From assembly GCA_902543485.1 (NCBI GenBank), contig CACBYP010000006.1, forward strand, positions 11,807 through 75,806: 64,000 bases of DNA, given 5' to 3'. The notes beneath the pieces were generated by a model that saw nothing but the letters and a program-made list of their open reading frames with translations, was not told the origin of the DNA and searched no databases. This DNA is from an uncultured Pelagibacteraceae bacterium (GTDB taxonomy: Bacteria > Pseudomonadota > Alphaproteobacteria > Pelagibacterales > Pelagibacteraceae). Positions 17,786-32,722 of the stretch are shown here, piece after piece (positions within the stretch are counted from its first letter, which is position 1; each line of letters begins with the position of its first letter). A program made the translations under genes and the position numbers.

Positions 17786-17792
17786 TTTTTTT

Positions 17793-17815
17793 CAGGCCCT
17801 CTGGTAGAGGGCCTG
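17793..17815 (-). promoter_or_regulatory. GC-rich intercistronic stem-loop between dctP and dctQ
   Basis: caggccctc-tggta-gagggcctg: a perfect 9-bp GC-rich stem in a 42-nt dctP-dctQ spacer. On the transcribed (minus) strand it is followed by A's, not U's, so it is not a canonical terminator. Confidence 0.5.
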
Positions 17816-17827
17816 TTACAAATTATG

Positions 17828-18802
17828 TTAATTTGCTAAAGACGATACTTTATCAATTAACGCACCACCAGTTGGTACTTCTGACGCGAATTGATCGTAT
17901 ATTCCTTTACTTGCACTAATGAAAGCACCTTTGTCAGCTTCGTTAACTTGAACTCCAGCTGATTTGATAACTCCCAATAAAGATTTTTCAAGATTAGCAG
18001 CCTCAGCATAAACAAATTTTTGTGTATCTTTAGCAGCTTGCTCTAAAATACTTTGTACATCTGCAGGTAGTTTGCTCCAATGATCTTTATGTACTGTTAC
18101 ATAAGCAGGAGTGTAGACGTGACCTGTGATTGATAAATATTTTTGAACTTCTTGGAATTTAGCACTAGCAATCTGAGCATATGGGTTTTCTTGTCCATCC
18201 ATTGTTCCTGTTTTCAAAGCAGTAAATACTTCTGAGAAAGACATTGGAGTTGGGTTTGCACCATATGATTGGAACATTTTAACTCTCCATTTTGATTTAG
18301 GTGTTCTTAATTTAATTCCTTTTAAGTCACCTGGAGTGTTAATTGGTCTAGTGTTGTTTGTGATATGTCTAAATCCATTTTCCCAAACAGCAATAACTTT
18401 GTATCCAGTTTTATCTTCAAGATTTTTAAACATTCCTGGTAAAACTTGGCTTTCAACTTTATTCATGTGTTTTCTGTCTTTAATAATGAAAGGCATATCA
18501 AATACACCAAACTCATCATGAATAGATGCCATTACTGATGAAGGTAACCACATGTTAACTGTACCTAATTTTAGTTTTTGCATTCCTTGTTTGTCTTTAC
18601 CAAGTTGCGAAGAACCAAAAACAGTTACTTTTCCTTTGCTGCCTAATCTCTCATTTGCAAGTTTAGCAAAATGATCAACTGATGCAGAAAATAAAGATCC
18701 AGGTTTTCCTACGTGTCCAAATTTTACTTCAGTTGAATTTGCTGAGAAACTTAAAAATAGAGACGATAATAAAACAACAATTATTTTAAAATATTTGTTC
18801 AT
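17828..18802 (-). CDS. dctP: TRAP transporter periplasmic solute-binding protein
   Basis: 324 aa. Signal peptide plus DctP-family sequence (KFGHVGKPGS..., NGFRHITN, RTPKS). Confidence 0.9.
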   Translation of the reverse strand: MNKYFKIIVVLLSSLFLSFSANSTEVKFGHVGKPGSLFSASVDHFAKLANERLGSKGKVTVFGSSQLGKDKQGMQKLKLGTVNMWLPSSVMASIHDEFGVFDMPFIIKDRKHMNKVESQVLPGMFKNLEDKTGYKVIAVWENGFRHITNNTRPINTPGDLKGIKLRTPKSKWRVKMFQSYGANPTPMSFSEVFTALKTGTMDGQENPYAQIASAKFQEVQKYLSITGHVYTPAYVTVHKDHWSKLPADVQSILEQAAKDTQKFVYAEAANLEKSLLGVIKSAGVQVNEADKGAFISASKGIYDQFASEVPTGGALIDKVSSLAN

Positions 18803-20098: not shown

Positions 20099-21526
20099 CT
20101 ATAATTTTTGTCTAAATTCGTAAGTTTTATTTAATTCATCTATATCAAATGATTCTATTGATCCATCGGTCCATTTAATTTCAACTTTAAAGTCTTTTTC
20201 ACCTTGTCTTATTCCATAATGAGCTACTGGTTCCATCTGACAGAGATAACCTGAGCCTGCATCTATTGTTTTTGAGTGAATTCTTTTATTAGATTTCATT
20301 GTTACTGTTGCCCCTCTTGCAGGAGCTCCATACTGATTAAGTGGTTTAATTCTTAAATAATTAAAATTTTTTATATCTGCTTTATATAAAGTTAACGGTT
20401 GAAACCCTGACTCACCATGTGAAACTAATAGTTCTAAAATTCCATCGCCATCAACATCTGCAACAGCTGCTCCAGTTCCAAGACCTACAGTCTCTAAACC
20501 ATTTTCCATTTTAATTTCTTTAAATATTCCACCCTCTAAAACTTTGAAAAGTTTATTTGGTTCTCCAATATTATTCATGAAAATTTCATCATATCCATCA
20601 TTATCAAAATCAGCTGAAATAACTGTTCTTATCTTAGTAGGTTCGTTGTATGGAGATGTTGATATATCTTTAAATTTGTCTCCATCTAAAACATATGCTC
20701 TATGCATTCCATCCCAGTTTGAAGATAAGATATCTAATCTCCCTCTATATAAAAGATCACTTAAAGCTGTTCCTCTACCATTTTCAAATCTATCTTGTAC
20801 AGCATACTCTTCAGCAACATCTTGGAAAGAACCTTTAGAATTATAATATAAAAAGTTGTCTCCTCTTTCATTTGCTGCAAAAATATCAGATCTATCTGAA
20901 AGAATGTGTCCAGACACAATAGCTCTGCCTCCAGTAATTTTATCGATTGATAATGATTTCGCTTGGTCTTTTATTCGATTTCTAATTAATTCATAAAATC
21001 GCGTAGGACCTCCATAATTTGCAACATAAATACCGTATGCACCATCACCTTTTCTATCTACACAAACAACAGATCTTCCAGCGGTTAAGTTTAATTCATT
21101 TTGATTAATTTCTTTTTCGAATAAATCTTCAAATTTATTATTATTTAAATCTATTAGTCGATCAGAATAAATTTTTGATCCACTATATGTATCAGTATTT
21201 AAAAAATATATTTCTTCATAGCCATCTTGATCGATATCACATGCAGCAACACCAATTGTTCTTCTTTCTTCATCAGTGAATATTTTTTCATTTACAATAT
21301 TTATTAGTTTCCCATCTTTATAAGAGAGGGCTAAATTTTTAAAACCAAAGCCAGTTACTACAAAATCATATTTATTATCTTTGTTAACATCCGTAACAGA
21401 TACTCCATAGCTTAATCGAAACTCATTTTCAGCTATTTGATCAGTTATATTTAGGAAAAAATCTTTAGCGTTAGCATAATTAATTACTGATAAAATGCTT
21501 AGAAAAATGAAGATAATTTTTTTCAT
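20099..21526 (-). CDS. Secreted FG-GAP/VCBS-repeat beta-propeller protein with ASPIC/UnbV-like C-terminus (CRTAC1-like)
   Basis: Repeated Ca-binding-type D-x-D-x-DG loops (CDIDQDGYEEIYF, ADFDNDGYDEIFM, ADVDGDGILELLV) and a C-terminal GSGYLCQMEPVAHYGI block. The track start at 21532 is TTG; the ATG at 21526 gives the signal peptide MKKIIFIFLSILSVINYANA. Confidence 0.8.
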   Translation of the reverse strand: MKKIIFIFLSILSVINYANAKDFFLNITDQIAENEFRLSYGVSVTDVNKDNKYDFVVTGFGFKNLALSYKDGKLINIVNEKIFTDEERRTIGVAACDIDQDGYEEIYFLNTDTYSGSKIYSDRLIDLNNNKFEDLFEKEINQNELNLTAGRSVVCVDRKGDGAYGIYVANYGGPTRFYELIRNRIKDQAKSLSIDKITGGRAIVSGHILSDRSDIFAANERGDNFLYYNSKGSFQDVAEEYAVQDRFENGRGTALSDLLYRGRLDILSSNWDGMHRAYVLDGDKFKDISTSPYNEPTKIRTVISADFDNDGYDEIFMNNIGEPNKLFKVLEGGIFKEIKMENGLETVGLGTGAAVADVDGDGILELLVSHGESGFQPLTLYKADIKNFNYLRIKPLNQYGAPARGATVTMKSNKRIHSKTIDAGSGYLCQMEPVAHYGIRQGEKDFKVEIKWTDGSIESFDIDELNKTYEFRQKL

Positions 21527-21576
21527 AATCAAGCTCTTTATTGGAATTTTAAAATTATAATATGAGATAAATTAGC

Positions 21577-21795: not shown

Positions 21796-22350
21796 TTATA
21801 AATTAGGATCGATTATAACAGAGTCTTGCATTTTTTTATTATCCCACCACCACATAACTTTAATTTTGCCCGCATTTGAAGAGCAATATGGATTTCTTGG
21901 ACAAACAACCATTGTAACTTCTCCATCATCTTCGCCATCACCAGCTCCAACTCCTTTTGAACTTTTCATCTTAACAGCACAATTACCTGATGGATGATTA
22001 TATGATCTTCCTTGATAACTTTTTGTAGATGTATCTAGAGGATTAGCTAGACCATATTTATGTGTTAATGTTATAGCTGCACAACTCCATTGTTTATTTT
22101 TAAAAATATCATTGCAGGGAACACCGGGATCTCCAAAAATTCTATTTGAGCTGTCAATGCTACATCTAACAAATTCAGTTTTCATATAATTTACTGTTGT
22201 TTTAAAATTTGCTTTAACAACTGCTTTTTTTGCACTCTCAGTATAACCATTGTAAGCAACAATACCTACTGCAGCAAGAATACCTATTATTGCGACAACA
22301 ACTAGGAGTTCGATCAATGTGAAACCTTTTTTATTCAAATGATATTTCAT
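21796..22350 (-). CDS. Type IV pilin / pseudopilin (prepilin-type N-terminal cleavage-methylation domain), copy 2
   Basis: MKYHLNKKG|FTLIELLVVVAIIGILAAVG class III signal. Six Cys in the C-terminal domain. The track start at 22356 is TTG; the ATG is at 22350. Overlaps the upstream pilin gene by 20 nt. Confidence 0.85.
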   Translation of the reverse strand: MKYHLNKKGFTLIELLVVVAIIGILAAVGIVAYNGYTESAKKAVVKANFKTTVNYMKTEFVRCSIDSSNRIFGDPGVPCNDIFKNKQWSCAAITLTHKYGLANPLDTSTKSYQGRSYNHPSGNCAVKMKSSKGVGAGDGEDDGEVTMVVCPRNPYCSSNAGKIKVMWWWDNKKMQDSVIIDPNL

Positions 22351-22852
22351 TTTCAATGTACTGAGTTTTACCTGTGCTATTTCCTAAATTTGAGCAAACT
22401 TTTATTGTCGTAGAGTTCAATTTAAATATTGATAGATAGCCACCCTGTTGAGCATGTGAAGGACATGCTGTCATATAACCTGGTGGATTGCAGTTTGTAA
22501 CATTTAATTTACACCATGAACCGTAAGGTGGATTACTTCCATAAAAAGGACTTGTCCAGTTCAATCCATATACTGTTTGATTCATATAACTAATAAAATT
22601 ATCAATGCTCATAGGACAGTTTGCTGTCTTCTCCTTGCCATTTATGTCATTATATTTTATTGGTTCACCAACACTACATAATGCTGATTTAGCTGCTACC
22701 ATTTTAAATATAGTTGTATGATTTGACTTTGTAGCTGCAATTTTTGCACCGCTTGTATACCCGCTATAAGCCACAACTCCGACAGCAGCTAAAATTCCAA
22801 TTATTGCTACAACGACTAAAAGTTCTATAAGTGTAAATCCTTTATTTTTCAT
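22331..22852 (-). CDS. Type IV pilin / pseudopilin, copy 1
   Basis: MKNKG|FTLIELLVVVAIIGILAAVG class III signal with Glu+5. Six Cys in the C-terminal domain. ATGA overlap with the upstream gene. Confidence 0.9.
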   Translation of the reverse strand: MKNKGFTLIELLVVVAIIGILAAVGVVAYSGYTSGAKIAATKSNHTTIFKMVAAKSALCSVGEPIKYNDINGKEKTANCPMSIDNFISYMNQTVYGLNWTSPFYGSNPPYGSWCKLNVTNCNPPGYMTACPSHAQQGGYLSIFKLNSTTIKVCSNLGNSTGKTQYIENEISFE

Positions 22853-23391
22853 TTTTTATTTGCTTTGTAATTTTCCATCCATTTTTTAAAAACTATTAAA
22901 GCATCATTCATATCTTTTGTTTTATTTGGATGATTTTTAGCCCTACCTAGCATAGTTGCAATAACATTTAATTGATATTTTATTGGTCTTTTTTTTATGG
23001 CTGAAACAGTAAACAATGCTTTTTCCTTATCTTTAAATCCTAAACCTTTTAAGGTTGTCTCTGGTTTATAATCTGAAAATAAAGAAAGATTTAATGGTTT
23101 AAATTTTTTATCTTTGATTAGTTTATTCATTGGCATTTTATCAACTATATCAAAGATTTTTTTTGTATATATTTTATCTAACTCAATTTTTATTGTGCCA
23201 TCAAAACCAATTAAAGTAACTTTAAATTTTTTTGATTTATCTAATTTTGTAACTAATTTTATATATCTTTTGTGAAAGGCTTTAATTTCTTTTTGATACA
23301 AATCTTTTGATCTTTTATATTCTGAATGATTGTAATTAGGCGTGTTGAGGACTAGCAATCTACATTTCCATAGATATTTTTTAAAACTCAT
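22849..23391 (-). CDS. DUF4174-like protein with an unrecognised C-terminal half
   Basis: 180 aa. The N-half (RLLVLNTP...KVTLIGFDGTIKIELDKIY...IFDIVDKMPMN) matches my recollection of the DUF4174 pattern. The C-half (GLGFKDKEKA...MLGRAKNHPNKTKDM) is unrecognised. Confidence 0.5.
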   Translation of the reverse strand: MSFKKYLWKCRLLVLNTPNYNHSEYKRSKDLYQKEIKAFHKRYIKLVTKLDKSKKFKVTLIGFDGTIKIELDKIYTKKIFDIVDKMPMNKLIKDKKFKPLNLSLFSDYKPETTLKGLGFKDKEKALFTVSAIKKRPIKYQLNVIATMLGRAKNHPNKTKDMNDALIVFKKWMENYKANKK

Positions 23392-23399
23392 TAAAAATA

Positions 23400-25991
23400 T
23401 TAATTGTAAATTTTGTCTCTTACAAGCTTACTTAACAAACTATATCCAAGTTCGTTCATATGTAGTGGATCTTCATCATAAAACTTATCATAACCAGCAT
23501 TTATCATTGGTGTTGTAATATCAACATAATCCCACATTTTTAAATTGGTTAGGTGTTTTTTTATCTTCGAATTAGCATCTAAAATTGTTGTCATAAGATC
23601 TCTTCTAAAGGGACTAGGCTTAATTGAAATAAAAAAACATTTTGCTCTAGGTAGTTTTTCTTCAACTTGGTTAGAAAATAATAAAAATTCTTTTAACAAT
23701 TCATCACTATCCATTCCATAACCAATATCATTATCTCCAGCATAAAAGAAAAGATTAGATGGGTTTAAAGGAGCAACCAATCTATCAAAATATCTTCTAC
23801 AAGAGACTAAGGTTGAGCCACCAAAACCTAAATTATAAAGATTATTTATTGATAAATCATTTTTAGCATTATCCCACATTTTAAAAGTTGAACTTCCATA
23901 CAAGGCAACACTGTTATTTGTTTTCGTCTGTTGAAAAGAATTATGCTCTAATTCTCTAACATCGAGTTCAAACTCTTCTTCAACTGGACTAACTAAATTT
24001 ACATTAGTTTTCAAATTTTCTATTTTATCTATGTTGTCTTGAACATTTTTAGCTAAATCAATAGCTTCTTCTACATAAGATCTAAATTTGGTTCTGTAAT
24101 TTTCTAAGAAGCTTTTCATTTCCTCTTGATTTTCTGGATCTTTGACATGATCACTTATAGTTATTGGCTCCTTAATAACTGCTGAATATATTGTTTTAGA
24201 AACTGGATAATCAAAATTAGCAAGGGCAATTGGAATTAGTTTTGGTTTAGGATTAAGTTTAAATGCAAGATTAAATGCACCAGCTTTAAATGGTCCTGGA
24301 GATGTTATTGTTTTATTATCTTCTGTTTCTGATGTTCCTTCGGGCGCAATTACAATCGGTTGTTTTTGATTAAATACCTTTTGAGCTTCATCAAAGAGTT
24401 TTTGTTTTCTAGCTTTCTTTTCTTCTTCACTTTCGTCCAATTTATCAGACTCTGGAGTATGAACAAAAATGTAATCTAAATTTTCATAATAATTATATCT
24501 CCAAAATTCTGTATTCCGACTTGTTCTAACAATACGTTGTCCTCCATCATTATATTTTGGATATAAAATTTTTGAACTGATGAAATGACTGTCGATTGAA
24601 AACGAATGCCCATTTGCAAGCTGATTATCATCTATAGCTGCTAAGTGATTGTAGAAAAAAATATTTGTTGGTTCATCTGGCAAATTTTCCCAACCCTTAA
24701 TTACATATTTAACATTATCAAAAGCTTTGGTGAAATTTGAATTGGTTAACTCTCTTAATTTTGTTTTATCTGAATTACTAGAAGAATTTGAAACTCTATT
24801 ATAAATAATATTTAATTGACTATGGAAACGAGACTCTCTTTCTAAATTATTTAATGTATCTTTTATTAAACTAGATAATGATTTTTCTATCTCATTTCCT
24901 TTAATAAGTAGTTCGTAAACAACATCAAATGCCATTGCATAAGTATGAGTACTCTTCAATAAATGTGGAATACTATATAACTTAGAACTAGCAGGTATTC
25001 TTGCAGTATTATCTTTCAATAATAAATTAACAAATTCTAATTCGTTTTCCGCTGAATATTTTGTCAGACCAGTTGCACTTTGTTGAAAACGTCCTAACTG
25101 CCACAATTGTCTTTTGAAAATCTTTATTGATAATTCTGGGTCAGAAATAATCAGATTTTCAAGTGCTTCGTTAGAAATATGTAAAACTTTTGTATCCCTA
25201 GTAGATTTAATTGTATATGGATTAAAAAAATCTCCTTTTCCAGAAGATAAAGTTAAAGCAATACCAGCTCTAGTTAGAGTTCTAAAATTTCTTCTTATTT
25301 TTCCATTAATAAAGTTATGGAATAAGCCATCAACTTTACCACTTAATAATATCTTTAAACCTTTAGAAACGTCTCCCTCTTTAACTATATATTGATTTGA
25401 TGAATACATCTTAATATTACCTAATTTAATAAACTTTTCTAAGTCATCATCTGTAAGTGTTGAGAAAAAAGTAGCAGATTTAATTCTATGTATATTTGTA
25501 ATACTTTTTTCTGATGGGATGCCTGGAGAAATTTGTATTTCATCATCTTTATACAAAGTGTTTAAATTTCTTGAAGAGACAAGCAGTTGGAAAGAAAAAA
25601 AAGAAATGGCTGAGTATAATGTTGATATAAGTTTACTATTTTTTTGTTGTAAATCTCTTAAATCATCTATTTTTATCGAGATATATTCTGTTCCACCTTC
25701 AATAAATATTTCACCCATAAATCTATTGGGTTGATTAAGTCCAGATATACCTAATGGTGTTGCAGGCTTTGTTATTTTTGCAAAGGTTATAGATTTAGTT
25801 TCAAAATACTTGGTAAATGTAGCTTTGCCTTTAATTAAAAAATAAATATTTTGTGAAATTTGATGCTGCTTTGCTAAAACTTCATCACTTGCAGCTATTA
25901 TGTGATCTGATATTCCATCTATTAGTCCAAAAGATTCTTTCAGATTTCCTAAATCAAAGCCATTTTGCTCAAATAATTCAGATAATTTCAT
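23400..25991 (-). CDS. Multidomain protein: 2 x CAP/cNMP-binding-like domains + glycerolipid acyltransferase (HX4D, PEGT) + SGNH/GDSL hydrolase
   Basis: 863 aa. cNMP-like beta-barrel starts at NIYFLIKGKATF (about aa 48) and YIVKEGDVSKGLKILLSGKV (about aa 201). The acyltransferase part has H449-LAAI-D454 and P550-EGT. The SGNH blocks are YGSS701, GFGG725, GDND755 and DPLH844. Confidence 0.8.
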   Translation of the reverse strand: MKLSELFEQNGFDLGNLKESFGLIDGISDHIIAASDEVLAKQHQISQNIYFLIKGKATFTKYFETKSITFAKITKPATPLGISGLNQPNRFMGEIFIEGGTEYISIKIDDLRDLQQKNSKLISTLYSAISFFSFQLLVSSRNLNTLYKDDEIQISPGIPSEKSITNIHRIKSATFFSTLTDDDLEKFIKLGNIKMYSSNQYIVKEGDVSKGLKILLSGKVDGLFHNFINGKIRRNFRTLTRAGIALTLSSGKGDFFNPYTIKSTRDTKVLHISNEALENLIISDPELSIKIFKRQLWQLGRFQQSATGLTKYSAENELEFVNLLLKDNTARIPASSKLYSIPHLLKSTHTYAMAFDVVYELLIKGNEIEKSLSSLIKDTLNNLERESRFHSQLNIIYNRVSNSSSNSDKTKLRELTNSNFTKAFDNVKYVIKGWENLPDEPTNIFFYNHLAAIDDNQLANGHSFSIDSHFISSKILYPKYNDGGQRIVRTSRNTEFWRYNYYENLDYIFVHTPESDKLDESEEEKKARKQKLFDEAQKVFNQKQPIVIAPEGTSETEDNKTITSPGPFKAGAFNLAFKLNPKPKLIPIALANFDYPVSKTIYSAVIKEPITISDHVKDPENQEEMKSFLENYRTKFRSYVEEAIDLAKNVQDNIDKIENLKTNVNLVSPVEEEFELDVRELEHNSFQQTKTNNSVALYGSSTFKMWDNAKNDLSINNLYNLGFGGSTLVSCRRYFDRLVAPLNPSNLFFYAGDNDIGYGMDSDELLKEFLLFSNQVEEKLPRAKCFFISIKPSPFRRDLMTTILDANSKIKKHLTNLKMWDYVDITTPMINAGYDKFYDEDPLHMNELGYSLLSKLVRDKIYN

Positions 25992-26243: not shown

Positions 26244-27701
26244 TTATCTTCTTTGAGATAAACTAGCGTGTTTATTTAATACTTCGGCTGAAATAACTTT
26301 TGCTTCTGTTGTTTTCTTAACACTCCAGATTTTTTCTTTAGCGGTTTTAGTCGATATTTTATTATCAACTATTGGTGATGGATAATCTTTACCAATTTCT
26401 AAATCTATTCCCTTTTGTTCAATAAATGTTAATTTCCATGGTTCATGAATTAATTTTCCTGGAACATTTTTTAATTCTGGAACCCATTTTTTGATAAAAT
26501 CTCCTGTAGGATCTTGATCAATTGATTGTTTAATTGGATTGTAAATTCTTATTGAATTTATTCCAGTTGTTCCTGATTGCATTTGAAATTGCGAATAATG
26601 AATACCTGGCTCATAATCTGTAAATAATTTTGCTAAATGTTTTGATGTTTTTTTCCAATCAAGCCATAATTGATATGACGCAAATGAAACTAACATTGCT
26701 CTCATTCTAAAATTAATCCATCCTTTAGTTCTAAGGTACCTCATGCAAGCGTCAACAAATGGATAACCAGTAGTTCCATTTTTCCATGCTAAATGATAAT
26801 CTTCATTAAAATCATTTTCTCTTATTCCATTGTAAGCGCTATTCATATTTCTAAATTCAATTTCTGGTTCATCATATAACTTTTGAATAAAATGACAGTG
26901 CCAAGCTAATCGACTTTTAAAAGCAATTAAGGATTTCTTTTTTGAAAAAGATAAATTTGATTTTAACTTTTCGTTAGTTTTTTTAAAAATTTCTTTGATA
27001 GAAATATTTCCAAATGCAATATGAGGGCTTAATCTTGAACAAGAAATTTCTCCTGTTATCGGCGAAGACATTTCTTTTTGGTAATTTTCTGATCTGTCAT
27101 TAAGGAAAGAATCTAAAAGTTGAAGTGCATTTTGTCTTCCACCAATTTGAATTTTTCCATTTTCTAAATTATTTGTTTGTATTTTTGTTAAATCCTCTAC
27201 ATAATTATCTGAAATAAACTCACAATTTAAATTTGAATTTACGCTTTCACTATCTATAAATTTATTCCAATTATATGACCATTTATTTCTAATTCTATGA
27301 TTTAGTTGAACACCAAATTGATTTGATAATTTCCAATTAATATTTTTTTCTTTAAATAAAAAACTAACTTCTTTATCTAAGTTAGTTATGTACATGTTCT
27401 TGAATATTATATTTGAATAAACCTCATTTATTTCAAATTTATCAGTTAAATGACTTAAAATTTCTAATGTATCTCCATAATATATATTGAGTTTAGCATT
27501 ATATTTTTTACTCAATGTTTTTGATAAATCATTTAACGATGATTTTAAAAAATCTAAATGGAATGAACTTGATGTAGATAATTTGTGATATTCTTTATCA
27601 AATATGTAAATTGGTAAAATCTTTCCTGATTTTGCAGCTTCGTTAAATGCATCATTATTAGATACACGTAGATCGTTCCTGAACCATACGATTTTGTTCA
27701 T
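26244..27701 (-). CDS. Cryptochrome/photolyase-family flavoprotein
   Basis: 485 aa. N-terminal [16 protein letters not shown] photolyase domain and a C-terminal FAD-binding region ([13 protein letters not shown]...[10 protein letters not shown]...YNPIKQS). Confidence 0.9.
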
Positions 27702-27710
27702 TTTTAATAA

Positions 27711-27902
27711 TTAAAGACTGATTTTGAAAGTTCTTGAAGTTTTGTCGTCTGATACTTTTAAAATTTTAAATTTTGAAGTTTTTTCAAGTTTTTGTCCTTT
27801 GTTTGTAACAAAAGATTTCATTTTTTTAACTTCGCCCTCAGGCATTTTTCTTGTGTATTTCAGAGTATGTTTTTTTGATCCAATAACAAATATAGTCTTC
27901 AT
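27711..27902 (-). CDS. Hypothetical small basic protein
   Basis: 63-aa Lys-rich ORF, 9 nt upstream of the photolyase gene. No motif recognised. A same-size antisense ORF exists, so coding status is uncertain. Confidence 0.35.
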   Translation of the reverse strand: MKTIFVIGSKKHTLKYTRKMPEGEVKKMKSFVTNKGQKLEKTSKFKILKVSDDKTSRTFKISL

Positions 27903-28010
27903 AAGATTTTAATTACAAATATATTTATTATCTGTCTCTGTGACATAAGTTTCATTTAAGAGTTTGGGAATATTTTGATTATTTTGATATCGAGAATCTA
28001 CTAAAGAGAC

Positions 28011-28069
28011 AGGTTGTATTCAAATAATATATTTATAAAAGATAGAAATAAATTTGTTGAATACAACCT
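28011..28069. repeat. Perfect 13-bp inverted repeat with 33-nt spacer
   Basis: aggttgtattcaa (28011-28023) and ttgaatacaacct (28057-28069) are exact reverse complements. They lie inside a 348-bp intergenic region. Confidence 0.7.
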
Positions 28070-28204
28070 ACCTAAAACTTATTTTTATAAGTGAAGGAGG
28101 TGCAAATGCTTAGAATAACGCCACCTGACACTTAGCTGGTGAGATATCACATATTAAAAATAACACAAACTAAATCCATTTGATGGATTTGGCCAAAATG
28201 GCAT

Positions 28205-28252
28205 AAAAAAGGGGAGCTCTTTTGGTAATAACCAATTGAGCTGACCCCTTTT
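28205..28252 (-). terminator. Rho-independent terminator after the xsc-to-aminotransferase gene string (usable in both directions)
   Basis: aaaaaaggggagctc...gagctgacccctttt: GC-rich stem with a 2-nt bulge, flanked by an A-run and a T-run. It overlaps the stop codon at 28251-28253. Confidence 0.65.
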
Positions 28253-29399
28253 AATAATTTTTAGACATAAAATCTTTAATTCTCTTAGCACCTTCAATTA
28301 TATCTTTTGTGCTTCTGGCATATGAGAATCGGATAGTAGAATTTCCTCTTTTTTGATCAAAATCAATTCCTGGTGTTATCGCAACATTTGCTTCATCTAA
28401 AACTTTTTTACAAAAAGCTAAGCTATCATTTGAATATTCAGAAATATCTACATAGATGTAAAAAGCTCCATCAGGTGGTGAAAACTTTTTTAATCCTGCT
28501 TTCGGTAATTCTTCCAAAAGTATCTCTCTATTTTTTTTATATACTTCAACATTCGATTGTAACTCCTCATTTGCATCTAATGAAGCAAGGGCTGTAACTT
28601 GACTTGCATGTGGAGGACAAACAAATAAATTCTGTGAAAGCCTTTCTACTTGTCTAACATGATCATCTGGTACAACCATCCATCCTATTCTCCAACCAGT
28701 CATAGAAAAGTATTTTGAAAAAGAATTAATTACATAGCAATTATCTGTAATCTCTAAAGCTGAAGTTGGATTATTTTCATATTGAATTCCGTGATAAATC
28801 TCATCACTAATAAAACTTACATTATTCTCATTTGCAGTATTAATTAAATTCTCTAGCGATTGTTTATCTAACATAGACCCGGTTGGATTTGCAGGTGATG
28901 CAACAAGAATTCCATTTAAATTATTATCTGTAATATCTTCTGGAACAGGTTGAAATCTATTTTGAAGTTTAGTTTGAATATCTACAGTTTCCAAACTTAG
29001 TGATTTTAATATTTGTCTATAACTAGGATAACTTGGAGATCCAATTCCAACTCTGTCTCCACTATCAAACAATGCAGAAAACGATAATATAAAGGCTCCG
29101 GAAGACCCTGTTGTAACTACTATTCTATTTGGATTTAAATCTAAATTGTACCAATCTCCATATAACTTTGAAATTTTTGTTCTTAGAGCAGGTAAACCAA
29201 GCGATACTGTGTAACCTAGATTGTTTTTGTTTATCTCATTAGTAATATAATCTTTTGCAATCTTAGGCGCTGGTGTTCCCGGCTGCCCTACCTCCATATG
29301 AATTATATCTTTACCTTTTTCTTCAGCAATTCTAGCAGACTCCATTACATCCATTACAATAAATGGATCAACATCTGATCTTTTTGATTTTTTCATCAT
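28251..29399 (-). CDS. Class I/II (aspartate-type) PLP aminotransferase
   Basis: 382 aa. SFSKYFSMTGWRIGW PLP-lysine block and the C-terminal RFSYA motif. Confidence 0.85.
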   Translation of the reverse strand: MMKKSKRSDVDPFIVMDVMESARIAEEKGKDIIHMEVGQPGTPAPKIAKDYITNEINKNNLGYTVSLGLPALRTKISKLYGDWYNLDLNPNRIVVTTGSSGAFILSFSALFDSGDRVGIGSPSYPSYRQILKSLSLETVDIQTKLQNRFQPVPEDITDNNLNGILVASPANPTGSMLDKQSLENLINTANENNVSFISDEIYHGIQYENNPTSALEITDNCYVINSFSKYFSMTGWRIGWMVVPDDHVRQVERLSQNLFVCPPHASQVTALASLDANEELQSNVEVYKKNREILLEELPKAGLKKFSPPDGAFYIYVDISEYSNDSLAFCKKVLDEANVAITPGIDFDQKRGNSTIRFSYARSTKDIIEGAKRIKDFMSKNY

Positions 29400-29602
29400 T
29401 TTATTTGATCTTCACAAAATTTTTTAATTTGTTCATTTGATAATCTGTCTTCTTTAGCTTTTTTAGAATCTAATTCAGCTTTTCCAATTATACATGCTTT
29501 AATAGTTTTGCTTCTATTAAAATCATTATAATAGTTAGTTGAGATGTAAAGAGCAATAATTCCTAATACTAAAAAAACTATAAGCTTTAAATTTTTTTTC
29601 AT
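29396..29602 (-). CDS. Small membrane-anchored or secreted protein
   Basis: 68 aa with one N-terminal hydrophobic helix. Translationally coupled on both sides (1-nt and 4-nt overlaps). Confidence 0.4.
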   Translation of the reverse strand: MKKNLKLIVFLVLGIIALYISTNYYNDFNRSKTIKACIIGKAELDSKKAKEDRLSNEQIKKFCEDQIK

Positions 29603-30906
29603 TAAATTTCAGTTTGAGCTTTTATTCTTTCGTAAGCTAATCTAGTGTAAATTCCTAAATTTAAAAAGGGTTGTGGTGGTAACCAGTTTGGTTTTTTTCT
29701 TTGTTGTATTACTTCAATTTCATTAGATTGTTGATTAGAGGCCATTAGAGCTATTTGTTCACCGAATAGTGTTCCTACTCCAATTCCAGATCCATTGTAA
29801 CAGCCTGCGCTAAAAATATTATCATCAATTTTTTCAAATATTTGAGAGCTATTACCACTTCTACATACAATCCCTGACCAACTGCTCTCTATTATATTAT
29901 CAGGTAATTGTTTAAATCTTTTCTTGATGCCTTCTTTATGAATTGCAGCTCTTTTATTTAATTCATTTCTATTCATTGAAAAAAGGTTTCTTAACTCTGC
30001 AGTATTTCTTATAAGTATTCTCCTATCTTTAGTCATTCTTATCGTAGCACCCATTGGTCTTATAGGAAGAACACCCCACTCTTTTGGAGAACCTATATCT
30101 TTAAATTCTTTATCTGTGAGTTTTCTCGTGAGACTAGCAGTTAATGTGATTGGGAAACTATAATTTTTTTTTACATTCAAATATTTCAAAAAACCGTTTG
30201 TGCAAAAAATAATTTTTTTAGTAGTTATTTTGTGCTTTTTTGTAAAACATTCAATTTTGTTATTAATCTTTTTCCAATTATAAATTTGAGAATTTTCATA
30301 TAATTTTACATTATCTGGCAATGTATCAACCATTGCTCTAGCTAATTTACCAGGGTTTAAAAGAATTCCTCCTGAGGTAAAAACTCCAATTTTATAAAAA
30401 GGCGTTCCCAATTTTTCAGTTAACTCTTTATTAAATAAAATTTTATTTTTAAAACCAAGACTATTTAATAATTTGCTGAACGATTGAGCTTTTGTCTCAT
30501 CTTGCTCTTTAGAGGAAGCAAAATATTTTCCACATTCATTCCAATCACAATCAACCTGATATTCTTTTATAAATTTTCTAACAGCTTCTATACCCAAGTG
30601 ATATATTTTTGTTTTTTTTACATAATTCTCTTTATCGCTGTTAGATGTAAAACCATCATTTAATGTAGTATCAACTAGATAGCCTGAATTTCTTGAACTT
30701 CCACCCTCGCCCGCTAACTGTGCATCAATGAGAATAATTTTTTGATCTTTTATTATATCTGAAAGTTTTCTAGCAGCTGATAATCCTGTATACCCAGCTC
30801 CTACAATTAAATAATCACAGTAAATGTCTTGATCTAGTAATTTAAAATTACTTCTCTCAGGAAGTTGTCTTGTCCATCCACAGAAATTGTTGTTTATTAA
30901 ATCCAA
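29602..30906 (-). CDS. FAD-dependent oxidoreductase (DAO family, PuuB/amine-oxidoreductase-like)
   Basis: 434 aa. YLIVGAGYTGLSAARKL dinucleotide fold. The apparent start is TTG and there is no nearby ATG. Confidence 0.75.
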   Translation of the reverse strand: MDLINNNFCGWTRQLPERSNFKLLDQDIYCDYLIVGAGYTGLSAARKLSDIIKDQKIILIDAQLAGEGGSSRNSGYLVDTTLNDGFTSNSDKENYVKKTKIYHLGIEAVRKFIKEYQVDCDWNECGKYFASSKEQDETKAQSFSKLLNSLGFKNKILFNKELTEKLGTPFYKIGVFTSGGILLNPGKLARAMVDTLPDNVKLYENSQIYNWKKINNKIECFTKKHKITTKKIIFCTNGFLKYLNVKKNYSFPITLTASLTRKLTDKEFKDIGSPKEWGVLPIRPMGATIRMTKDRRILIRNTAELRNLFSMNRNELNKRAAIHKEGIKKRFKQLPDNIIESSWSGIVCRSGNSSQIFEKIDDNIFSAGCYNGSGIGVGTLFGEQIALMASNQQSNEIEVIQQRKKPNWLPPQPFLNLGIYTRLAYERIKAQTEI

Positions 30907-30937
30907 TAATTATTTTTATAATGAAATTTTACTAATC

Positions 30938-32722
30938 TCAACTAACAAGAGACTTTTGAGGCTTCATATCACTCTTACTTATACCAGCTACTTTAACTGG
31001 TTTTTTCATAGCATCTCTTCTGAATGGCTCACCTAATTCTTGATTTAGAATTATTTCGATAAATGTAGTAATACCTTTTTTCTGGTCTTCACATGATTGT
31101 TTAATAGCTTTAGTAGTTTCTTCCATTGTATTTGCAATAACTCCTTTTAAACCGCAGGCATTGGCAACTTTTGCGTAGCTTAATTCTGGATCTAACTCTG
31201 TTCCAACAAAATTATCATCAAACCATAAAATTGAATTTCTTTTTTCAGCGCCCCATTGATAATTTCTAAAAATTACCATAGTTATTGCTGGCCATTCTTC
31301 TCTAGCACATGAACTCATTTCGTTCATACTTATTCCAAATGCTCCGTCACCTGCAAAACCTATAACTGGGGTATCTGGACATCCAATTTTTGCTCCAAGA
31401 ATAGATGGAAATCCATAACCACATGGTCCAAATAAACCTGGTGCCAAATATTTTCTTGGTTTTTCAAATGTTGGGTATGCATTACCAATTGCACAATTAT
31501 TTCCAATATCACTTGAAATTATAACATCTTCTGGCATTCCAGCTTGAATAGCTCTCCACGCTTGTCTTGGAGACATTCTATCTTTATCTCTTTCTCTTGC
31601 TTCTTTATTCCAAACAGTTCCTGGATCATCATCTTCATGATCTAAACTTGTAAGAGTTTGTAACCATGCAGATTTTGTTTGATGAATTAGATTTTTTCTA
31701 TCTTCTCTACCATTATCTCCAGCATTTGATGAAAGTTTTTCTAATATCTGTTGAGCTACCATTTTAGCATCACCACAAATACCAACTGTAACTTTCTTGG
31801 TTAAACCAATACGATCAGGGTTCATATCTACTTGAATAATTGTTGCATCTTTTGGCCAGTAATCAATTCCATATCCTGGTAATGTTGAAAATGGATTTAA
31901 TCTTGTTCCTAATGCCAAAACTACATCAGCTTTTGAAATTAACTCCATTGCAGCTTTAGATCCGTTGTAACCTAATGGACCAACAGCTAATGGATGACTT
32001 CCTGGAAAGCTATCGTTATGTTGATATCCATTGCATACAGGTGCATCAAGTTTTTCTGCTAATTTTTTACAATCATCAATGGCATCACCTATAACAACTC
32101 CTGCTCCAGATAAAATTACTGGGAATTTTGCTTCTGATAATAATTTCGCAGCTCTATCAACAGCATCTTTTCCTCCACCTTGTCTTTCAAATCTTACTAT
32201 TGGAGGCAATTCTATATCTATAACTTGTGTCCAAAAATCTCTTGGTACATTTATTTGTGCAGGCGCTGAACCTCTAAATGCTTTTTCTATTACTCTGTTT
32301 AAAACTTCTGCCATTCTTGATGGGTCTCTAACTTCTTCTTGATAACACACCATGTCTTTAAATAAATTCATTTGCTCTACTTCTTGAAAACCACCTTGTC
32401 CCATAGTTTTGTTTGCAGCTTGTGGTGTAACTAAAAGTAGTGGAGTATGGTTCCAGTAAGCTGTCTTAATTGGTGTAACAAGTCCTGTAATACCTGGACC
32501 ATTTTGAGCAATCACCATTGACATTTTTCCAGTTGCTCTCGTGTAACCATCAGCAATCAGTCCACCATTTGTTTCATGAGCAACATCCCAAAAAGTTATT
32601 CCAGCTTCTGGGAAAAGATCAGAAATAGGCATGAATGCAGAACCAATAATACCAAACGAATGTTCGATACCATGCATTTGTAAAACTTTTACAAAAGCTT
32701 CTTCGGTTGTCATTTTAGCCAT
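30938..32722 (-). CDS. xsc: Sulfoacetaldehyde acetyltransferase (TPP-dependent)
   Basis: 594 aa. The N-terminus MAKMTTEEAFVKVLQMHGIEHSFGIIGSAFMPISDLF...MVIAQNGPGITGLVTPIKTAYWNHTPLLLVTPQA closely matches my recollection of Xsc proteins. A TPP-binding GDGAF motif is present. Confidence 0.85.
   Translation of the reverse strand: MAKMTTEEAFVKVLQMHGIEHSFGIIGSAFMPISDLFPEAGITFWDVAHETNGGLIADGYTRATGKMSMVIAQNGPGITGLVTPIKTAYWNHTPLLLVTPQAANKTMGQGGFQEVEQMNLFKDMVCYQEEVRDPSRMAEVLNRVIEKAFRGSAPAQINVPRDFWTQVIDIELPPIVRFERQGGGKDAVDRAAKLLSEAKFPVILSGAGVVIGDAIDDCKKLAEKLDAPVCNGYQHNDSFPGSHPLAVGPLGYNGSKAAMELISKADVVLALGTRLNPFSTLPGYGIDYWPKDATIIQVDMNPDRIGLTKKVTVGICGDAKMVAQQILEKLSSNAGDNGREDRKNLIHQTKSAWLQTLTSLDHEDDDPGTVWNKEARERDKDRMSPRQAWRAIQAGMPEDVIISSDIGNNCAIGNAYPTFEKPRKYLAPGLFGPCGYGFPSILGAKIGCPDTPVIGFAGDGAFGISMNEMSSCAREEWPAITMVIFRNYQWGAEKRNSILWFDDNFVGTELDPELSYAKVANACGLKGVIANTMEETTKAIKQSCEDQKKGITTFIEIILNQELGEPFRRDAMKKPVKVAGISKSDMKPQKSLVS

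What the first reader, a model, noticed from the sequence alone, without database searches (positions are those of the whole stretch)
23400..25991. Single polypeptide combining two CAP/cNMP-like sensor barrels, a glycerolipid acyltransferase and an SGNH esterase
The motifs appear in this order:
- Two cNMP-binding-like starts (NIYFLIKGKATF; YIVKEGDVSKGLKILLSGKV).
- Acyltransferase block I H449xxxxD454 and block III P550EGT.
- All four SGNH blocks (GSS701, GG725, GDND755, DPLH844).

A deacylase and a reacylase on one chain under an allosteric sensor would be a self-contained lipid-remodelling device (Lands-cycle-like). The design echoes eukaryotic NTE (cNMP domains + lipase) but uses different catalytic folds. 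Both phosphate-binding cassettes look degenerate, with no clear GE...R[ST]A, so the ligand may not be cAMP or cGMP. No cyclase is visible in the window.
Basis: partly seen in the sequence, partly recalled or inferred. Interest (0 to 1): 0.7.

Follow-up and report, generated by a model that had tools for sequence, protein, structure and literature searches.

The report
Sensor-linked acyltransferase–esterase fusion enzyme
This SAR11 gene really does encode one 863-residue protein joining two cyclic-nucleotide-type sensor domains, a glycerolipid-type acyltransferase and a small serine esterase; it belongs to a widespread but unstudied bacterial family whose acyltransferase and esterase usually travel together, though its substrate and signal are still unknown.

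Summary
ORF 23400–25991 (−) encodes 863 aa, and every motif sits at the stated residue. Pfam, a confident AlphaFold model (pLDDT 86.6) and Foldseek support four modules: a tandem CNB pair, a helical bundle, a GPAT/PlsC-fold acyltransferase (AT) and an SGNH esterase.

Corrections and additions:
- **Block I motif.** "H449xxxxD454" is coincidental. The family signature is NH-x17-D, with D467 invariant.
- **Sensors.** Neither domain has a canonical cAMP/cGMP site: CNB-1 lacks the Glu and the Arg-Ser/Thr pair, and CNB-2 lacks the cassette.
- **Partner esterase.** Most distant relatives are unfused. Four of eight informative short forms have an SGNH gene directly downstream. Two have a CE7 acetyl-esterase next door instead.
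- **Esterase type.** The nearest characterised relatives of both esterase types are acetyl or short-chain esterases, not phospholipases A.

The family occurs in at least 578 species genomes across several phyla, and I found no paper on it.

Best reading: a ligand-gated deacylation/reacylation enzyme acting on a glycerolipid-like ester. The removed group is possibly short or damaged.

Verdict: a new variant of known kinds. Interest is moderate to high.

The parts
23400..25991 (-). Whole gene: 863-aa CNB-CNB-helical bundle-acyltransferase-SGNH protein (stop codon 23400-23402)
   Evidence: ORF list; translation check; full-length homologues of 860-890 aa
25557..25934 (-). CNB-like domain 1 (residues ~20-145)
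   Evidence: Profile A4 hits CNB domains in the PDB and aligns to E. coli CRP at 87% probability; Foldseek matches to PKA-R/PKG
25722..25751 (-). CNB-1 degenerate phosphate-binding cassette, G81-I-S-G-L-N-Q-P-N-R90
   Evidence: G81, S83 and R90 are invariant in 37/37 and P88 in 36/37. The position of CRP Glu72 is I/V/W. R90 aligns two residues before CRP Arg82, and there is no Ser/Thr after it
25107..25499 (-). CNB-like domain 2 (residues ~165-295); best Pfam cNMP_binding stretch is 195-282
   Evidence: The alignment to CRP shows the cassette helix deleted, with Arg82 opposite a variable residue and Ser83 opposite Pro258
24717..25106 (-). All-helical bundle (residues 296-425) between the sensors and the acyltransferase core
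   Evidence: DSSP of the models. It is co-aligned with the N-terminal helical domain of soluble plastidial GPAT in Foldseek, 387-400 aligned columns
24117..24716 (-). GPAT/AGPAT-superfamily acyltransferase alpha/beta core (residues 426-625)
   Evidence: Pfam PF01553, with full-profile matches in relatives; Foldseek to 1iuq/1k30/8ia1/5kym/5f2z/8e4y; the most conserved module, mean pairwise identity 0.64
24591..24650 (-). Block I variant: N448-H449 ... D467 (NHLAAIDDNQLANGHSFSID)
   Evidence: N448, H449 and D467 are invariant in 37/37, while D454 is variable. H-to-D spacing is 18 in 96 of 97 distant relatives
24504..24545 (-). Candidate block II, G483-G-Q-R486-I-V-R489-T-S-R492
   Evidence: G484, R486 and R489 are invariant in 37/37 and R492 in 34/37. 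Assignment to block II is by resemblance to the GxxFIxR motif and is an inference
24333..24344 (-). Block III, P550-E-G-T553
   Evidence: P550, E551 and G552 are invariant in 37/37. It aligns to FPEGTR of E. coli PlsC in hhalign
23403..23984 (-). SGNH esterase module (residues 670-863), including its N-terminal EEEFExDVRELE helix
   Evidence: Pfam Lipase_GDSL_2; PDB sequence and fold matches. This exact unit is a separate ~195-202-aa gene in the split lineages
23889..23897 (-). SGNH block I, G699-S-S701 (nucleophile S701)
   Evidence: G699 and S701 are invariant in 37/37
23727..23738 (-). SGNH block III, G752-D-N754-D (oxyanion Asn)
   Evidence: Invariant in 37/37
23460..23471 (-). SGNH block V, D841-P-L-H844 (catalytic Asp/His)
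   Evidence: D841 and H844 are invariant in 37/37
26244..27701 (-). Upstream neighbour: photolyase/cryptochrome-family gene. It is context only and not shown to be part of the unit
   Evidence: Pfam DNA_photolyase + FAD_binding_7. Photolyase-family genes lie within ~5 kb in four lineages
22849..23391 (-). Downstream neighbour: DUF4174 protein starting 8 bp after the stop codon, probably co-transcribed. Seen in this clade only

Best explanation
The gene encodes a cytoplasmic, ligand-gated enzyme with two catalytic activities that turn over an O-acyl ester. Its C-terminal SGNH serine esterase (S701/D841/H844) removes an ester-linked acyl group. The GPAT/PlsC-fold acyltransferase (H449, D467, PEG 550-552, Arg 486/489) installs an acyl group from an acyl-thioester donor (acyl-ACP or acyl-CoA) on the same or the resulting acceptor. 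That acceptor is most probably a glycerolipid or lysolipid-type molecule at the inner face of the membrane. The N-terminal pair of CNB-fold domains is joined to the acyltransferase through a helical bundle. It acts as an allosteric sensor for a ligand that is probably not cAMP or cGMP. The esterase's closest characterised relatives, and its CE7 substitute in other lineages, are acetyl or short-chain esterases. The group removed is therefore more likely short, modified or damaged than an ordinary long fatty acyl chain. Shown here: the architecture, the folds, the conservation of catalytic residues, the loss of canonical cNMP contacts, and the genomic coupling of acyltransferase and esterase. 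Inferred: substrate class, order of reactions, donor, ligand, and direction of regulation.
For: - Folds and domains.
- All catalytic residues of both enzymes are invariant in 37 representatives down to ~30% identity, and the acyltransferase core is the most constrained module (identity 0.64 against 0.36-0.40 for the CNB domains).
- There is no transmembrane segment or signal peptide.
- The best structural match, over the whole helical-bundle plus core region, is the soluble acyl-ACP-dependent plastidial GPAT.
- Functional coupling of the two enzymes: the helical+AT module forms a small family of 204 clusters. Many members are 630-700 aa without a fused SGNH. In 4 of 8 informative cases an SGNH gene of ~200 aa follows immediately, by a 14-nt overlap, a TAAATG junction, a 4-nt overlap or a 4-bp gap. 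In the two junctions read at nucleotide level (L081, L076) the break falls at the same linker helix and the catalytic blocks are intact.
- In 2 further cases an orthologous CE7 acetyl-esterase is the divergent neighbour, although the CNB-AT genes there are only 33% identical.
- Esterase relatives are sialate O-acetylesterase and PAF-acetylhydrolase-like proteins.
- Non-canonical sensors.
Against: - The active-site geometry, pocket size and mutual orientation of the two active sites are therefore unknown.
- Two of eight short forms have no esterase neighbour, so the pairing is frequent but not obligatory.
- The canonical HX4D Asp is absent from most of the family, and block III lacks the Arg of EGTR. 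Chemistry and acceptor may therefore differ from PlsC/GPAT.
- Acetyl-esterase-like partners fit carbohydrate or small-molecule deacetylation as well as lipid work.
- No lipid-synthesis genes are consistently nearby.
Confidence: 0.42

Rival explanations
1. Classical bacterial Lands cycle. The SGNH domain is a phospholipase A or lysophospholipase that removes ordinary long-chain fatty acids from membrane phospholipids. The acyltransferase then re-acylates the lysophospholipid to change acyl composition.
For: The domain families are compatible. Some databases name members 'lysophospholipase L1-like esterase' or '1-acyl-sn-glycerol-3-phosphate acyltransferase'. The tight AT-esterase coupling fits a two-step cycle. 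Bacterial remodelling systems exist: PlaF (PMC9132575) and LplT/Aas (PMC11416262).
Against: The nearest solved relatives of the SGNH module are acetyl-specific esterases. In two lineages the partner is a CE7 acetyl-esterase. CE7 is a family known, from general knowledge, for small acetylated substrates. The database names are automatic labels. No long-chain lipase feature was shown.
Confidence: 0.2
2. Writer/eraser pair for a short O-acyl (acetyl) mark on a non-lipid substrate such as a sugar, sugar-phosphate, cell-wall recycling intermediate or other small metabolite. The CNB sensors would decide which of two opposing activities dominates.
For: Both partner esterase types are acetyl-esterase-like. 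Some neighbours are carbohydrate or cell-wall genes: AnmK and a NagA-like gene in Rhodobacteraceae, fucosidases in L089, and trehalose genes in L091.
Against: The transferase fold and motifs are those of glycerolipid acyltransferases, with GPAT, PlsC and PatA as the only significant fold matches. The neighbours differ from lineage to lineage. From general knowledge, PF01553 enzymes are not known to acetylate sugars.
Confidence: 0.15
3. The esterase acts on the acyl donor, not the product. It would be a thioesterase, like the SGNH enzyme TesA, that hydrolyses acyl-ACP/acyl-CoA. Alternatively it relays the acyl group as an acyl-enzyme, as the SGNH domains of OafA/OatA do. Either way the fusion would control or channel acyl supply to the transferase.
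For: SGNH enzymes include thioesterases (general knowledge). SGNH domains fused to acyltransferases act as transferases in AT3-SGNH proteins (PMC7448272, PMC9558356, listed). Fusion or adjacency fits channelling.
Against: The fold neighbours found here are O-acetylesterases rather than TesA. Replacement by a CE7 esterase is hard to reconcile with a specific relay role. AT3-SGNH proteins are membrane and periplasmic, and use an unrelated transferase family.
Confidence: 0.12
4. A canonical cAMP- or cGMP-activated lipid enzyme, or a cyclic-nucleotide-triggered anti-phage effector of the Pycsar/CBASS type that attacks the membrane.
For: It has a tandem CNB fold like PKA-R. There is a marginal PADLOC match of CNB-2 to a Pycsar effector model (E 0.0088).
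Against: Glu and Arg-Ser/Thr of the phosphate-binding cassette are missing in CNB-1, and the cassette is deleted in CNB-2. No cyclase gene was seen among the neighbours inspected. Many, but not all, were annotated. The gene is conserved at the same place in closely related streamlined SAR11 genomes and in at least 578 species. That pattern is unlike a mobile defence island. There is no significant PADLOC hit.
Confidence: 0.05

Closest known systems
Neuropathy target esterase / PNPLA6-PNPLA7 (and bacterial CNB-patatin proteins)
   Same: Several CNB-type domains sit N-terminal to a serine lipid hydrolase. The role of cyclic nucleotides is doubtful: in PNPLA7, cNMP analogues changed localisation but not activity (PMC5704489).
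   Different: The catalytic fold is patatin, not SGNH. NTE has no acyltransferase module and is anchored by a transmembrane helix, whereas this protein has none.
Soluble plastidial glycerol-3-phosphate acyltransferase (squash 1K30/1IUQ, Myrmecia 8IA1)
   Same: It is the best fold match over the whole middle region: an N-terminal helical bundle plus an alpha/beta acyltransferase core, in a soluble protein.
   Different: Sequence identity is only 12-14%, with no sequence-level hit. Block I is NH-x17-D instead of HX4D. GPAT has no sensor or esterase modules. The acceptor here is unknown.
PlsC, 1-acyl-sn-glycerol-3-phosphate acyltransferase (T. maritima 5KYM, E. coli PlsC)
   Same: Same superfamily (Pfam PF01553). 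Foldseek gives TM 0.60. Blocks III and IV align to E. coli PlsC.
   Different: It is far below the curated NCBIfam score for AGP acyltransferase (20 bits against 103). It lacks the HX4D Asp and the Arg of EGTR, and it has no membrane-anchoring N-terminus.
Bacterial phospholipid remodelling systems: PlaF of P. aeruginosa, and LplT/Aas
   Same: They embody the concept of deacylation followed by re-acylation of membrane lipids in bacteria. Aas is also a fusion of a PF01553 acyltransferase with a second enzyme (PMC9132575, PMC11416262).
   Different: The folds and partners differ: PlaF is a membrane-bound alpha/beta hydrolase, and Aas carries an acyl-ACP synthetase. Neither has a sensor domain, and neither joins hydrolase and transferase on one chain.
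PAF-acetylhydrolase Ib (SGNH) together with LPCAT1/2 (AGPAT family) in animals (own knowledge, not tested here)
   Same: It pairs the same two enzyme superfamilies: an SGNH esterase that removes a short sn-2 acyl group and a PF01553 transferase that re-acylates the lyso-lipid. The SGNH module here has weak sequence matches to PAF-AH-like proteins (2hsj).
   Different: In animals the two are separate proteins acting on ether-lipid substrates not known in these bacteria. The resemblance is only at family level.
Sialate O-acetylesterase of Phocaeicola vulgatus (6NJC/7PZG), and CE7 acetyl-xylan esterase / cephalosporin-C deacetylase
   Same: The sialate esterase is the closest solved relative of the SGNH module (TM 0.82-0.85). 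CE7 is the family of the alternative partner esterase (E 4e-36).
   Different: Those enzymes are stand-alone carbohydrate or small-molecule deacetylases. Sequence identity to the SGNH module is ~15-16%.
AT3-SGNH O-acetyltransferases (OafA, OatA)
   Same: An acyltransferase is fused to a C-terminal SGNH domain, showing that such SGNH domains can work with a transferase on one substrate (PMC7448272).
   Different: The transferase there is the unrelated ten-helix membrane AT3 family. The SGNH domain is periplasmic, and there is no sensor.

Membership tests
CNB (cyclic-nucleotide-binding, CAP/CRP-type) fold | Eight-stranded beta-barrel with flanking helices, recognised by Pfam PF00027 and by structure | tested here: met
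   Pfam E 5e-9 with two stretches; profiles of each domain hit CNB structures; Foldseek to tandem CNB domains of PKA-R/PKG at E 2e-10
Functional cAMP/cGMP receptors | Phosphate-binding cassette with Gly-Glu ... Arg-Ser/Thr (CRP G71, E72, R82, S83) | tested here: not met
   In CNB-1 the Gly is kept but Glu is replaced by I/V/W in 37/37. The invariant R90 lies two positions before CRP R82 and has no Ser/Thr after it. In CNB-2 the cassette helix is deleted, with R82 opposite a variable residue and S83 opposite Pro
GPAT/AGPAT (LPLAT, PF01553) acyltransferases | Alpha/beta acyltransferase fold | tested here: met
   Pfam 31.6 bits against a cut-off of 23, with full-profile hits in relatives. GPAT, PlsC, PatA and GPAT1 are the only significant Foldseek matches
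GPAT/AGPAT (LPLAT, PF01553) acyltransferases | Block I HX4D: catalytic His with Asp five residues later | tested here: not met
   His449 is invariant. Position +5 is P/E/D = 13/11/10 of 37, and P in 50 and D in 3 of 97 distant relatives. The conserved acid is D467 at +18 in 96 of 97. Whether D467 is spatially equivalent could not be measured because no coordinates were available
GPAT/AGPAT (LPLAT, PF01553) acyltransferases | Block III (F)PEGT(R) and block IV hydrophobic-Pro stretch | tested here: met
   P550-E-G is invariant and aligns to FPEGTR of E. coli PlsC, followed by LIPIAL. The Arg after EGT is Ser here
PlsC proper (1-acylglycerol-3-phosphate O-acyltransferase) | Score above the curated family threshold; lysophosphatidate as acceptor | tested here: not met
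   TIGR00530 scores 20.2 bits against a cut-off of 102.95. The acceptor cannot be tested with these tools
SGNH/GDSL hydrolases | Four blocks providing Ser (I), Gly (II), Asn (III) and Asp-x-x-His (V) on the SGNH fold | tested here: met
   G-S-S701, G724-G725, G-D-N754-D and D841-x-x-H844 are all invariant in 37/37. Pfam Lipase_GDSL_2 matches. Foldseek TM is 0.82-0.85 to SGNH esterases
NTE / PNPLA6-7 | Patatin catalytic domain and N-terminal transmembrane anchor | tested here: not met
   There is no patatin match in Pfam and no hydrophobic segment above the usual threshold. The relation is an analogy only
Lands-cycle remodelling system | Phospholipase A activity producing a lysophospholipid that the acyltransferase re-acylates | not testable with these tools
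   Only the genomic coupling of esterase and transferase could be shown
Pycsar/CBASS-type defence effectors | Match to a defence-system model and an adjacent nucleotide cyclase | tested here: not met
   PADLOC gives only E 0.0088 over 42 residues of CNB-2. No cyclase was seen among the neighbours inspected in the sampled loci, not all of which were annotated

The most novel reading that the evidence does not exclude
The family is a bacterial repair enzyme for photo-oxidised or otherwise oxidised membrane lipids. The acetyl-esterase-like module would clip oxidatively truncated or modified acyl groups, as PAF-acetylhydrolases do in animals. The attached acyltransferase would immediately re-acylate the lysolipid, and the CNB pair would sense a damage-related or acyl-derived ligand rather than a cyclic nucleotide. 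This would explain three things: retention of the gene in streamlined surface-ocean SAR11 genomes, its repeated proximity to photolyase/cryptochrome genes (four lineages), and its proximity to peroxide-defence genes (AhpC, OsmC/Ohr+MarR, an OYE-type reductase, DCC1) elsewhere.
Probability: 0.13. Interest if true: 0.85.

Novelty: new variant of a known kind. Interest (0 to 1): 0.58.

Why it matters
SAR11 is among the most abundant organisms in the ocean and keeps very few regulatory or multi-domain proteins. A conserved 863-residue sensor-enzyme fusion in it is therefore likely to matter physiologically.

The family spans at least 578 species genomes in several phyla but carries only automatic names, and I found no study of it.

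If the two catalytic modules act on one substrate, this would be the first bacterial enzyme combining removal and re-installation of an acyl group under direct allosteric control. Controlled lipid turnover in bacteria is poorly understood, so such an enzyme would make the question directly testable.

It also adds a clear case of CNB domains that have lost the cyclic-nucleotide site while keeping an invariant Gly/Ser/Arg pocket. That implies an unknown ligand. It further defines an unusual NH-x17-D variant of the acyltransferase catalytic motif.

Cultured hosts such as Marinomonas mediterranea make experiments feasible.

Tried and rejected
1. A sequence profile of the acyltransferase region against all PDB sequences found nothing even at E ≤ 10. 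hhalign against E. coli PlsC aligned only blocks III/IV at 8% probability. Residue-level equivalence of block I therefore had to rest on conservation and secondary structure.
2. I tried to measure H449-D467/D454 distances and the relative position of the two active sites. Model coordinates are not exposed to the sandbox.
3. A search for a universally conserved operon partner found none. Neighbours differ between lineages.
4. The promoter/terminator scan was uninformative in this AT-rich DNA: 33 promoter-like sites against 42 expected.
5. The defence-system hypothesis found no support in PADLOC.
6. Eight literature searches, one using accession numbers of the Marinomonas protein, found no description of this architecture. 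The 2007 survey of CNB families does not list it either.
7. The idea that the CNB pair is always attached was rejected. Single-CNB forms of ~495 aa exist, and possibly CNB-less forms of 353-456 aa.
8. Obligatory SGNH adjacency was rejected. Two short forms have no esterase neighbour and two have a CE7 esterase instead.
9. I did not scan the window for cyclases. Absence in 64 kb would not be informative.


Full report

Yes. The ORF list gives one ORF at exactly 23400..25991 on the minus strand, with an ATG start and 863 codons. The window has about 30% G+C. Its closest relatives are single-cell genomes of Pelagibacteraceae (SAR11) at 98-99% identity.

Pfam supports all three domain types above its curated thresholds, although only just:

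| Pfam family | Score (bits) | Cut-off (bits) |
|---|---|---|
| cNMP_binding (two stretches) | 36.4 | 27.5 |
| Acyltransferase PF01553 | 31.6 | 23 |
| Lipase_GDSL_2 | 33.0 | 32.9 |

NCBIfam gives only sub-threshold hints.

Structure gives independent support. An AlphaFold2 model built on a 20-sequence alignment has mean pLDDT 86.6 and pTM 0.82. Foldseek against the PDB matches the first ~300 residues to tandem CNB domains of PKA regulatory subunits and PKG (E 2e-10). It matches the last ~200 residues to SGNH sialate O-acetylesterases (TM 0.82-0.85, rmsd 2.3-3.1 Å).

I also modelled the middle region (residues 296-665) alone (pLDDT 85.8). Its only significant fold matches are glycerolipid acyltransferases:
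- soluble plastidial glycerol-3-phosphate acyltransferase (1IUQ/1K30/8IA1; E 1e-7 to 1e-6, aligned over 372-400 columns, so including the N-terminal helical bundle);
- T. maritima PlsC (E 4e-5, TM 0.60);
- PatA;
- human GPAT1.

There is no hydrophobic segment typical of a membrane helix and no signal peptide.

**2. Anatomy**

| Residues | Module |
|---|---|
| ~20-145 | CNB-1 |
| ~165-295 | CNB-2 |
| 296-425 | helical bundle |
| 426-625 | acyltransferase core |
| 626-669 | long linker helix |
| 670-863 | SGNH module, starting with a conserved EEEFExDVRELE helix |

I compared 37 family representatives below 90% identity, taken from SAR11, Rhodobacteraceae, Marinomonas, Thermodesulfobacteriota and others. 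These residues are all invariant:
- acyltransferase: N448, H449, D467, G484, R486, R489, P550, E551, G552;
- esterase: G699, S701, G724, G725, G752-D-N-D755, D841, H844.

The acyltransferase core is the most constrained module, with mean pairwise identity 0.64. The SGNH module scores 0.51 and the CNB domains 0.36-0.40. Both enzymes therefore look catalytically competent.

**3.

The 'HxxxxD' is not the family motif. Position 454 is P/E/D in 13/11/10 of the 37 representatives. I then examined 97 more distant relatives recovered by an exhaustive search. In these, the residue five after the His is Pro in 50 and Asp in only 3. An Asp lies exactly 18 residues after the His in 96 of the 97. The consensus is NHLxNHPxNTLPNxFQ[IL]TLDSHF.

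In the models D467 sits at the start of the helix that follows the His-bearing strand. From general knowledge, that is where the canonical Asp sits in PlsC-type enzymes. I therefore infer that D467 is the functional acid.

Pfam matches that cover nearly the whole acyltransferase profile in several relatives confirm that the 'NH' is block I. Block III lacks the Arg of 'EGTR', with Ser at that position here.

**4. The sensors**

Profiles of each CNB domain find CNB structures. However, matches to PKA and PKG stop before the phosphate-binding cassette.

Aligned to E. coli CRP (87% probability), CNB-1 keeps Gly71 (as G81). It has Ile/Val/Trp instead of Glu72. Its invariant Arg90 lies two positions before Arg82 and has no Ser/Thr after it. 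In CNB-2 the cassette helix is missing, and Arg82/Ser83 correspond to a variable residue and Pro258.

The only solved protein that aligns through the cassette is 3MDP, an uncharacterised 'CNMP-BD' protein with a similar GVSSL..P..Y motif.

The invariant G81/S83/R90 (with P88 in 36 of 37) in CNB-1 argues that something, perhaps an anionic ligand, is still bound there. CNB folds are known to bind other ligands, for example nucleosides in trypanosome PKA (PMC10959531).

**5. Distribution and the key comparative result**

These include SAR11, Rhodobacteraceae, SAR202, Nitriliruptoraceae, Cytophagales and Thermodesulfobacteriota, and Marinomonas mediterranea. Public names are automatic and inconsistent.

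I ran an exhaustive HMMER search with the helical-bundle plus acyltransferase module alone. It finds a small, discrete family: 204 clusters at 50% identity with E ≤ 1e-3, and 91 at 1e-30. In most full-length hits the module starts about 300 residues from the N-terminus. Pfam detects cNMP_binding in that N-terminal region in the members I checked. Single-CNB forms of ~495 aa also exist, and possibly CNB-less ones.

Most of the more distant relatives are 630-700 aa and end right after the acyltransferase. I examined their contigs. One (P0139) lies on a contig too short to tell. The eight informative cases were:

| Neighbour | Cases | Detail |
|---|---|---|
| SGNH gene of ~195-202 aa directly downstream | P0099 lineage | 14-nt overlap ATGGAAGTCATTAA, seen in three independent assemblies |
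| | Cytophagales L076 | TAAATG junction |
| | P0132 | 4-nt overlap, in the complete genome CP029480.1 |
| | P0144 | 4-bp gap |
| CE7 acetyl-esterase as immediate divergent neighbour | P0162, P0222 | see below |
| No esterase neighbour | P0188, P0200 | — |

In the two junctions I read at nucleotide level (L081 and L076), the break falls immediately before the EEEFExDVRELE-type helix. The detached SGNH proteins there keep all four catalytic blocks.

In the two CE7 cases there is no SGNH gene. The two CE7 proteins are 39% identical to each other and match cephalosporin-C deacetylase at E 4e-36. The adjacent CNB-AT genes are only 33% identical.

Fusion in some lineages, translationally coupled adjacency in others, and replacement by an unrelated esterase fold in yet others together make a classic signature of two activities working in one process.

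**6. What kind of esterase?**

The SGNH module's closest solved relatives by sequence and fold are sialate O-acetylesterases, Bacteroides 'GDSL-like' acylhydrolases and a PAF-acetylhydrolase-like protein. The alternative partner is a CE7 acetyl-esterase. Both point to short acyl groups. This weakens the simple 'phospholipase A + re-acylase' picture without excluding it.

From my own knowledge, animals pair exactly these two superfamilies in the PAF remodelling cycle. PAF-acetylhydrolase Ib is an SGNH enzyme, and LPCAT1/2 belong to the AGPAT family. PAF-acetylhydrolases also clear oxidatively truncated phospholipids.

**7. Genomic context**

No neighbour is universal.

In the window the gene follows a photolyase gene (26244-27701) after a 252-bp gap. 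Eight base pairs after its stop codon comes a DUF4174 gene, then overlapping pilin-like genes.

Photolyase/cryptochrome-family genes of different classes lie within ~5 kb in four lineages:
- the window clade has a classical photolyase directly upstream;
- a 57%-identity SAR11 lineage has DPRP plus DCC1 directly upstream and another FAD_binding_7 gene directly downstream;
- a 56%-identity lineage has DPRP 4.8 kb away;
- Rhodobacteraceae have DPRP 3.5 kb away.

Elsewhere the neighbours include an AhpC/TSA peroxiredoxin (L076), an OYE-type reductase and a rhodanese (L066), and an OsmC/Ohr-type protein plus a MarR regulator in Marinomonas. This oxidative or photo-damage theme is suggestive but anecdotal. 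I did not test it statistically, and distant lineages lack it.

**8. Mechanism**

My best-supported reading (confidence ~0.4) is a cytoplasmic, ligand-gated enzyme. Its esterase removes an ester-linked acyl group that is probably short, modified or damaged. Its GPAT/PlsC-fold transferase installs an acyl group from acyl-ACP/CoA on the same class of acceptor, probably glycerolipid-like. The CNB pair transmits an unknown, non-cNMP signal through the helical bundle.

- Shown: architecture, folds, catalytic conservation, loss of cNMP contacts, and esterase-transferase coupling.
- Inferred: substrate, donor, order of reactions, ligand, and sign of regulation.

The rivals are:
- the classical long-chain Lands cycle;
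- a writer/eraser pair for an acetyl mark on a non-lipid;
- an esterase acting on the acyl donor or as an acyl relay;
- a canonical cNMP or defence effector, which is poorly supported.

**9. Comparison with known systems and novelty**

The protein works like NTE/PNPLA6-7 in layout, with CNB domains ahead of a lipid hydrolase. It is not a member of that family, having neither a patatin domain nor a membrane anchor. It belongs to the CNB, PF01553 and SGNH superfamilies by fold. It fails the defining cNMP-contact residues, the HX4D Asp, and the PlsC family score.

Eight literature searches and the 2007 CNB-family survey yielded no description of this architecture.

I rate it a new variant of known kinds. 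The domain types are all known, but the combination is uncharacterised and conserved, and it carries an unusual catalytic motif and an orphan sensor.

Interest is moderate to high (0.58). Three things raise it: abundance in SAR11, clear evidence of module coupling, and direct testability in cultured hosts. The unknown substrate and signal temper it.

Noticed in passing
window 26244-27701 (-); L033 5848-7669 and 10488-11624; L030 1712-3193; L061 14073-15569: Photolyase/cryptochrome-family genes of different classes lie next to or within ~5 kb of the gene in four lineages, but not in more distant ones. The classes are classical PHR, DPRP/PF04244 with a DCC1-like oxidoreductase, and a 378-aa FAD_binding_7 protein. 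This may mean a light or UV-damage link, or it may be inherited synteny.
   Followed up: partly
window 21796-23391 (-): A DUF4174 gene starts 8 bp after the stop codon. It is followed by two overlapping genes with prepilin-type N-terminal methylation motifs, so this is probably one transcription unit in this clade only. L001 carries three pilin-like copies where the window has two.
   Followed up: partly
L018, L020, L021 versus L001 and the window (window 26244-29399): Three near-identical SAR11 single-cell genomes lack the photolyase and the aminotransferase upstream of the gene, while the other full-length loci of this clade have them. This is a presence/absence polymorphism right beside the gene.
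   Followed up: no
window 20099-21532 (-): A 477-aa protein with FG-GAP repeats and an ASPIC/UnbV domain and a signal-like N-terminus lies downstream of the pilin-like genes.
   Followed up: no
window 28251-32722 (-): There is a run of a class I/II aminotransferase, a FAD-dependent (DAO) oxidoreductase and a thiamine-pyrophosphate enzyme. It may be a small catabolic cluster. An aminotransferase also lies near the gene in the 56%-identity lineage (28% identical).
   Followed up: no
window 15993-18802 (-): A TRAP-type solute-binding protein (DctP, E 6e-91) is followed by 169-aa and 427-aa ORFs of the sizes expected for the small and large membrane subunits. Those two were not scanned.
   Followed up: no
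PDB 3MDP against window residues ~27-135 and 168-277: An uncharacterised structural-genomics 'CNMP-BD' protein shares the same degenerate cassette (FGVSSLIKPYHY) as CNB-1. This suggests a wider subfamily of CNB domains with an unknown ligand.
   Followed up: partly
L090 5076-7957: In one distant short-form lineage the CNB-AT gene is followed by an ABC ATPase and a PhoB/PhoR-like two-component pair. This hints at a link to phosphate limitation, but it is a single observation.
   Followed up: no
L092 9706-11086 (Marinomonas mediterranea CP047694.1): YCII, an OsmC/Ohr-family protein and a MarR-type regulator lie just downstream (convergent) of the fused gene. An AhpC/TSA peroxiredoxin lies directly upstream in Cytophagales L076 (6796-7398).
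   Followed up: no
L066 11014-12660 and L069 10970-12601: An AMP-binding (acyl-CoA-ligase-type) enzyme lies two genes downstream in one alphaproteobacterial lineage. It could supply an acyl donor, but it was seen in only that lineage.
   Followed up: no
L072 7485-10595: The longest ORF for this MAG's homologue is 1036 aa. That is probably an over-extended start rather than a real N-terminal extension.
   Followed up: no
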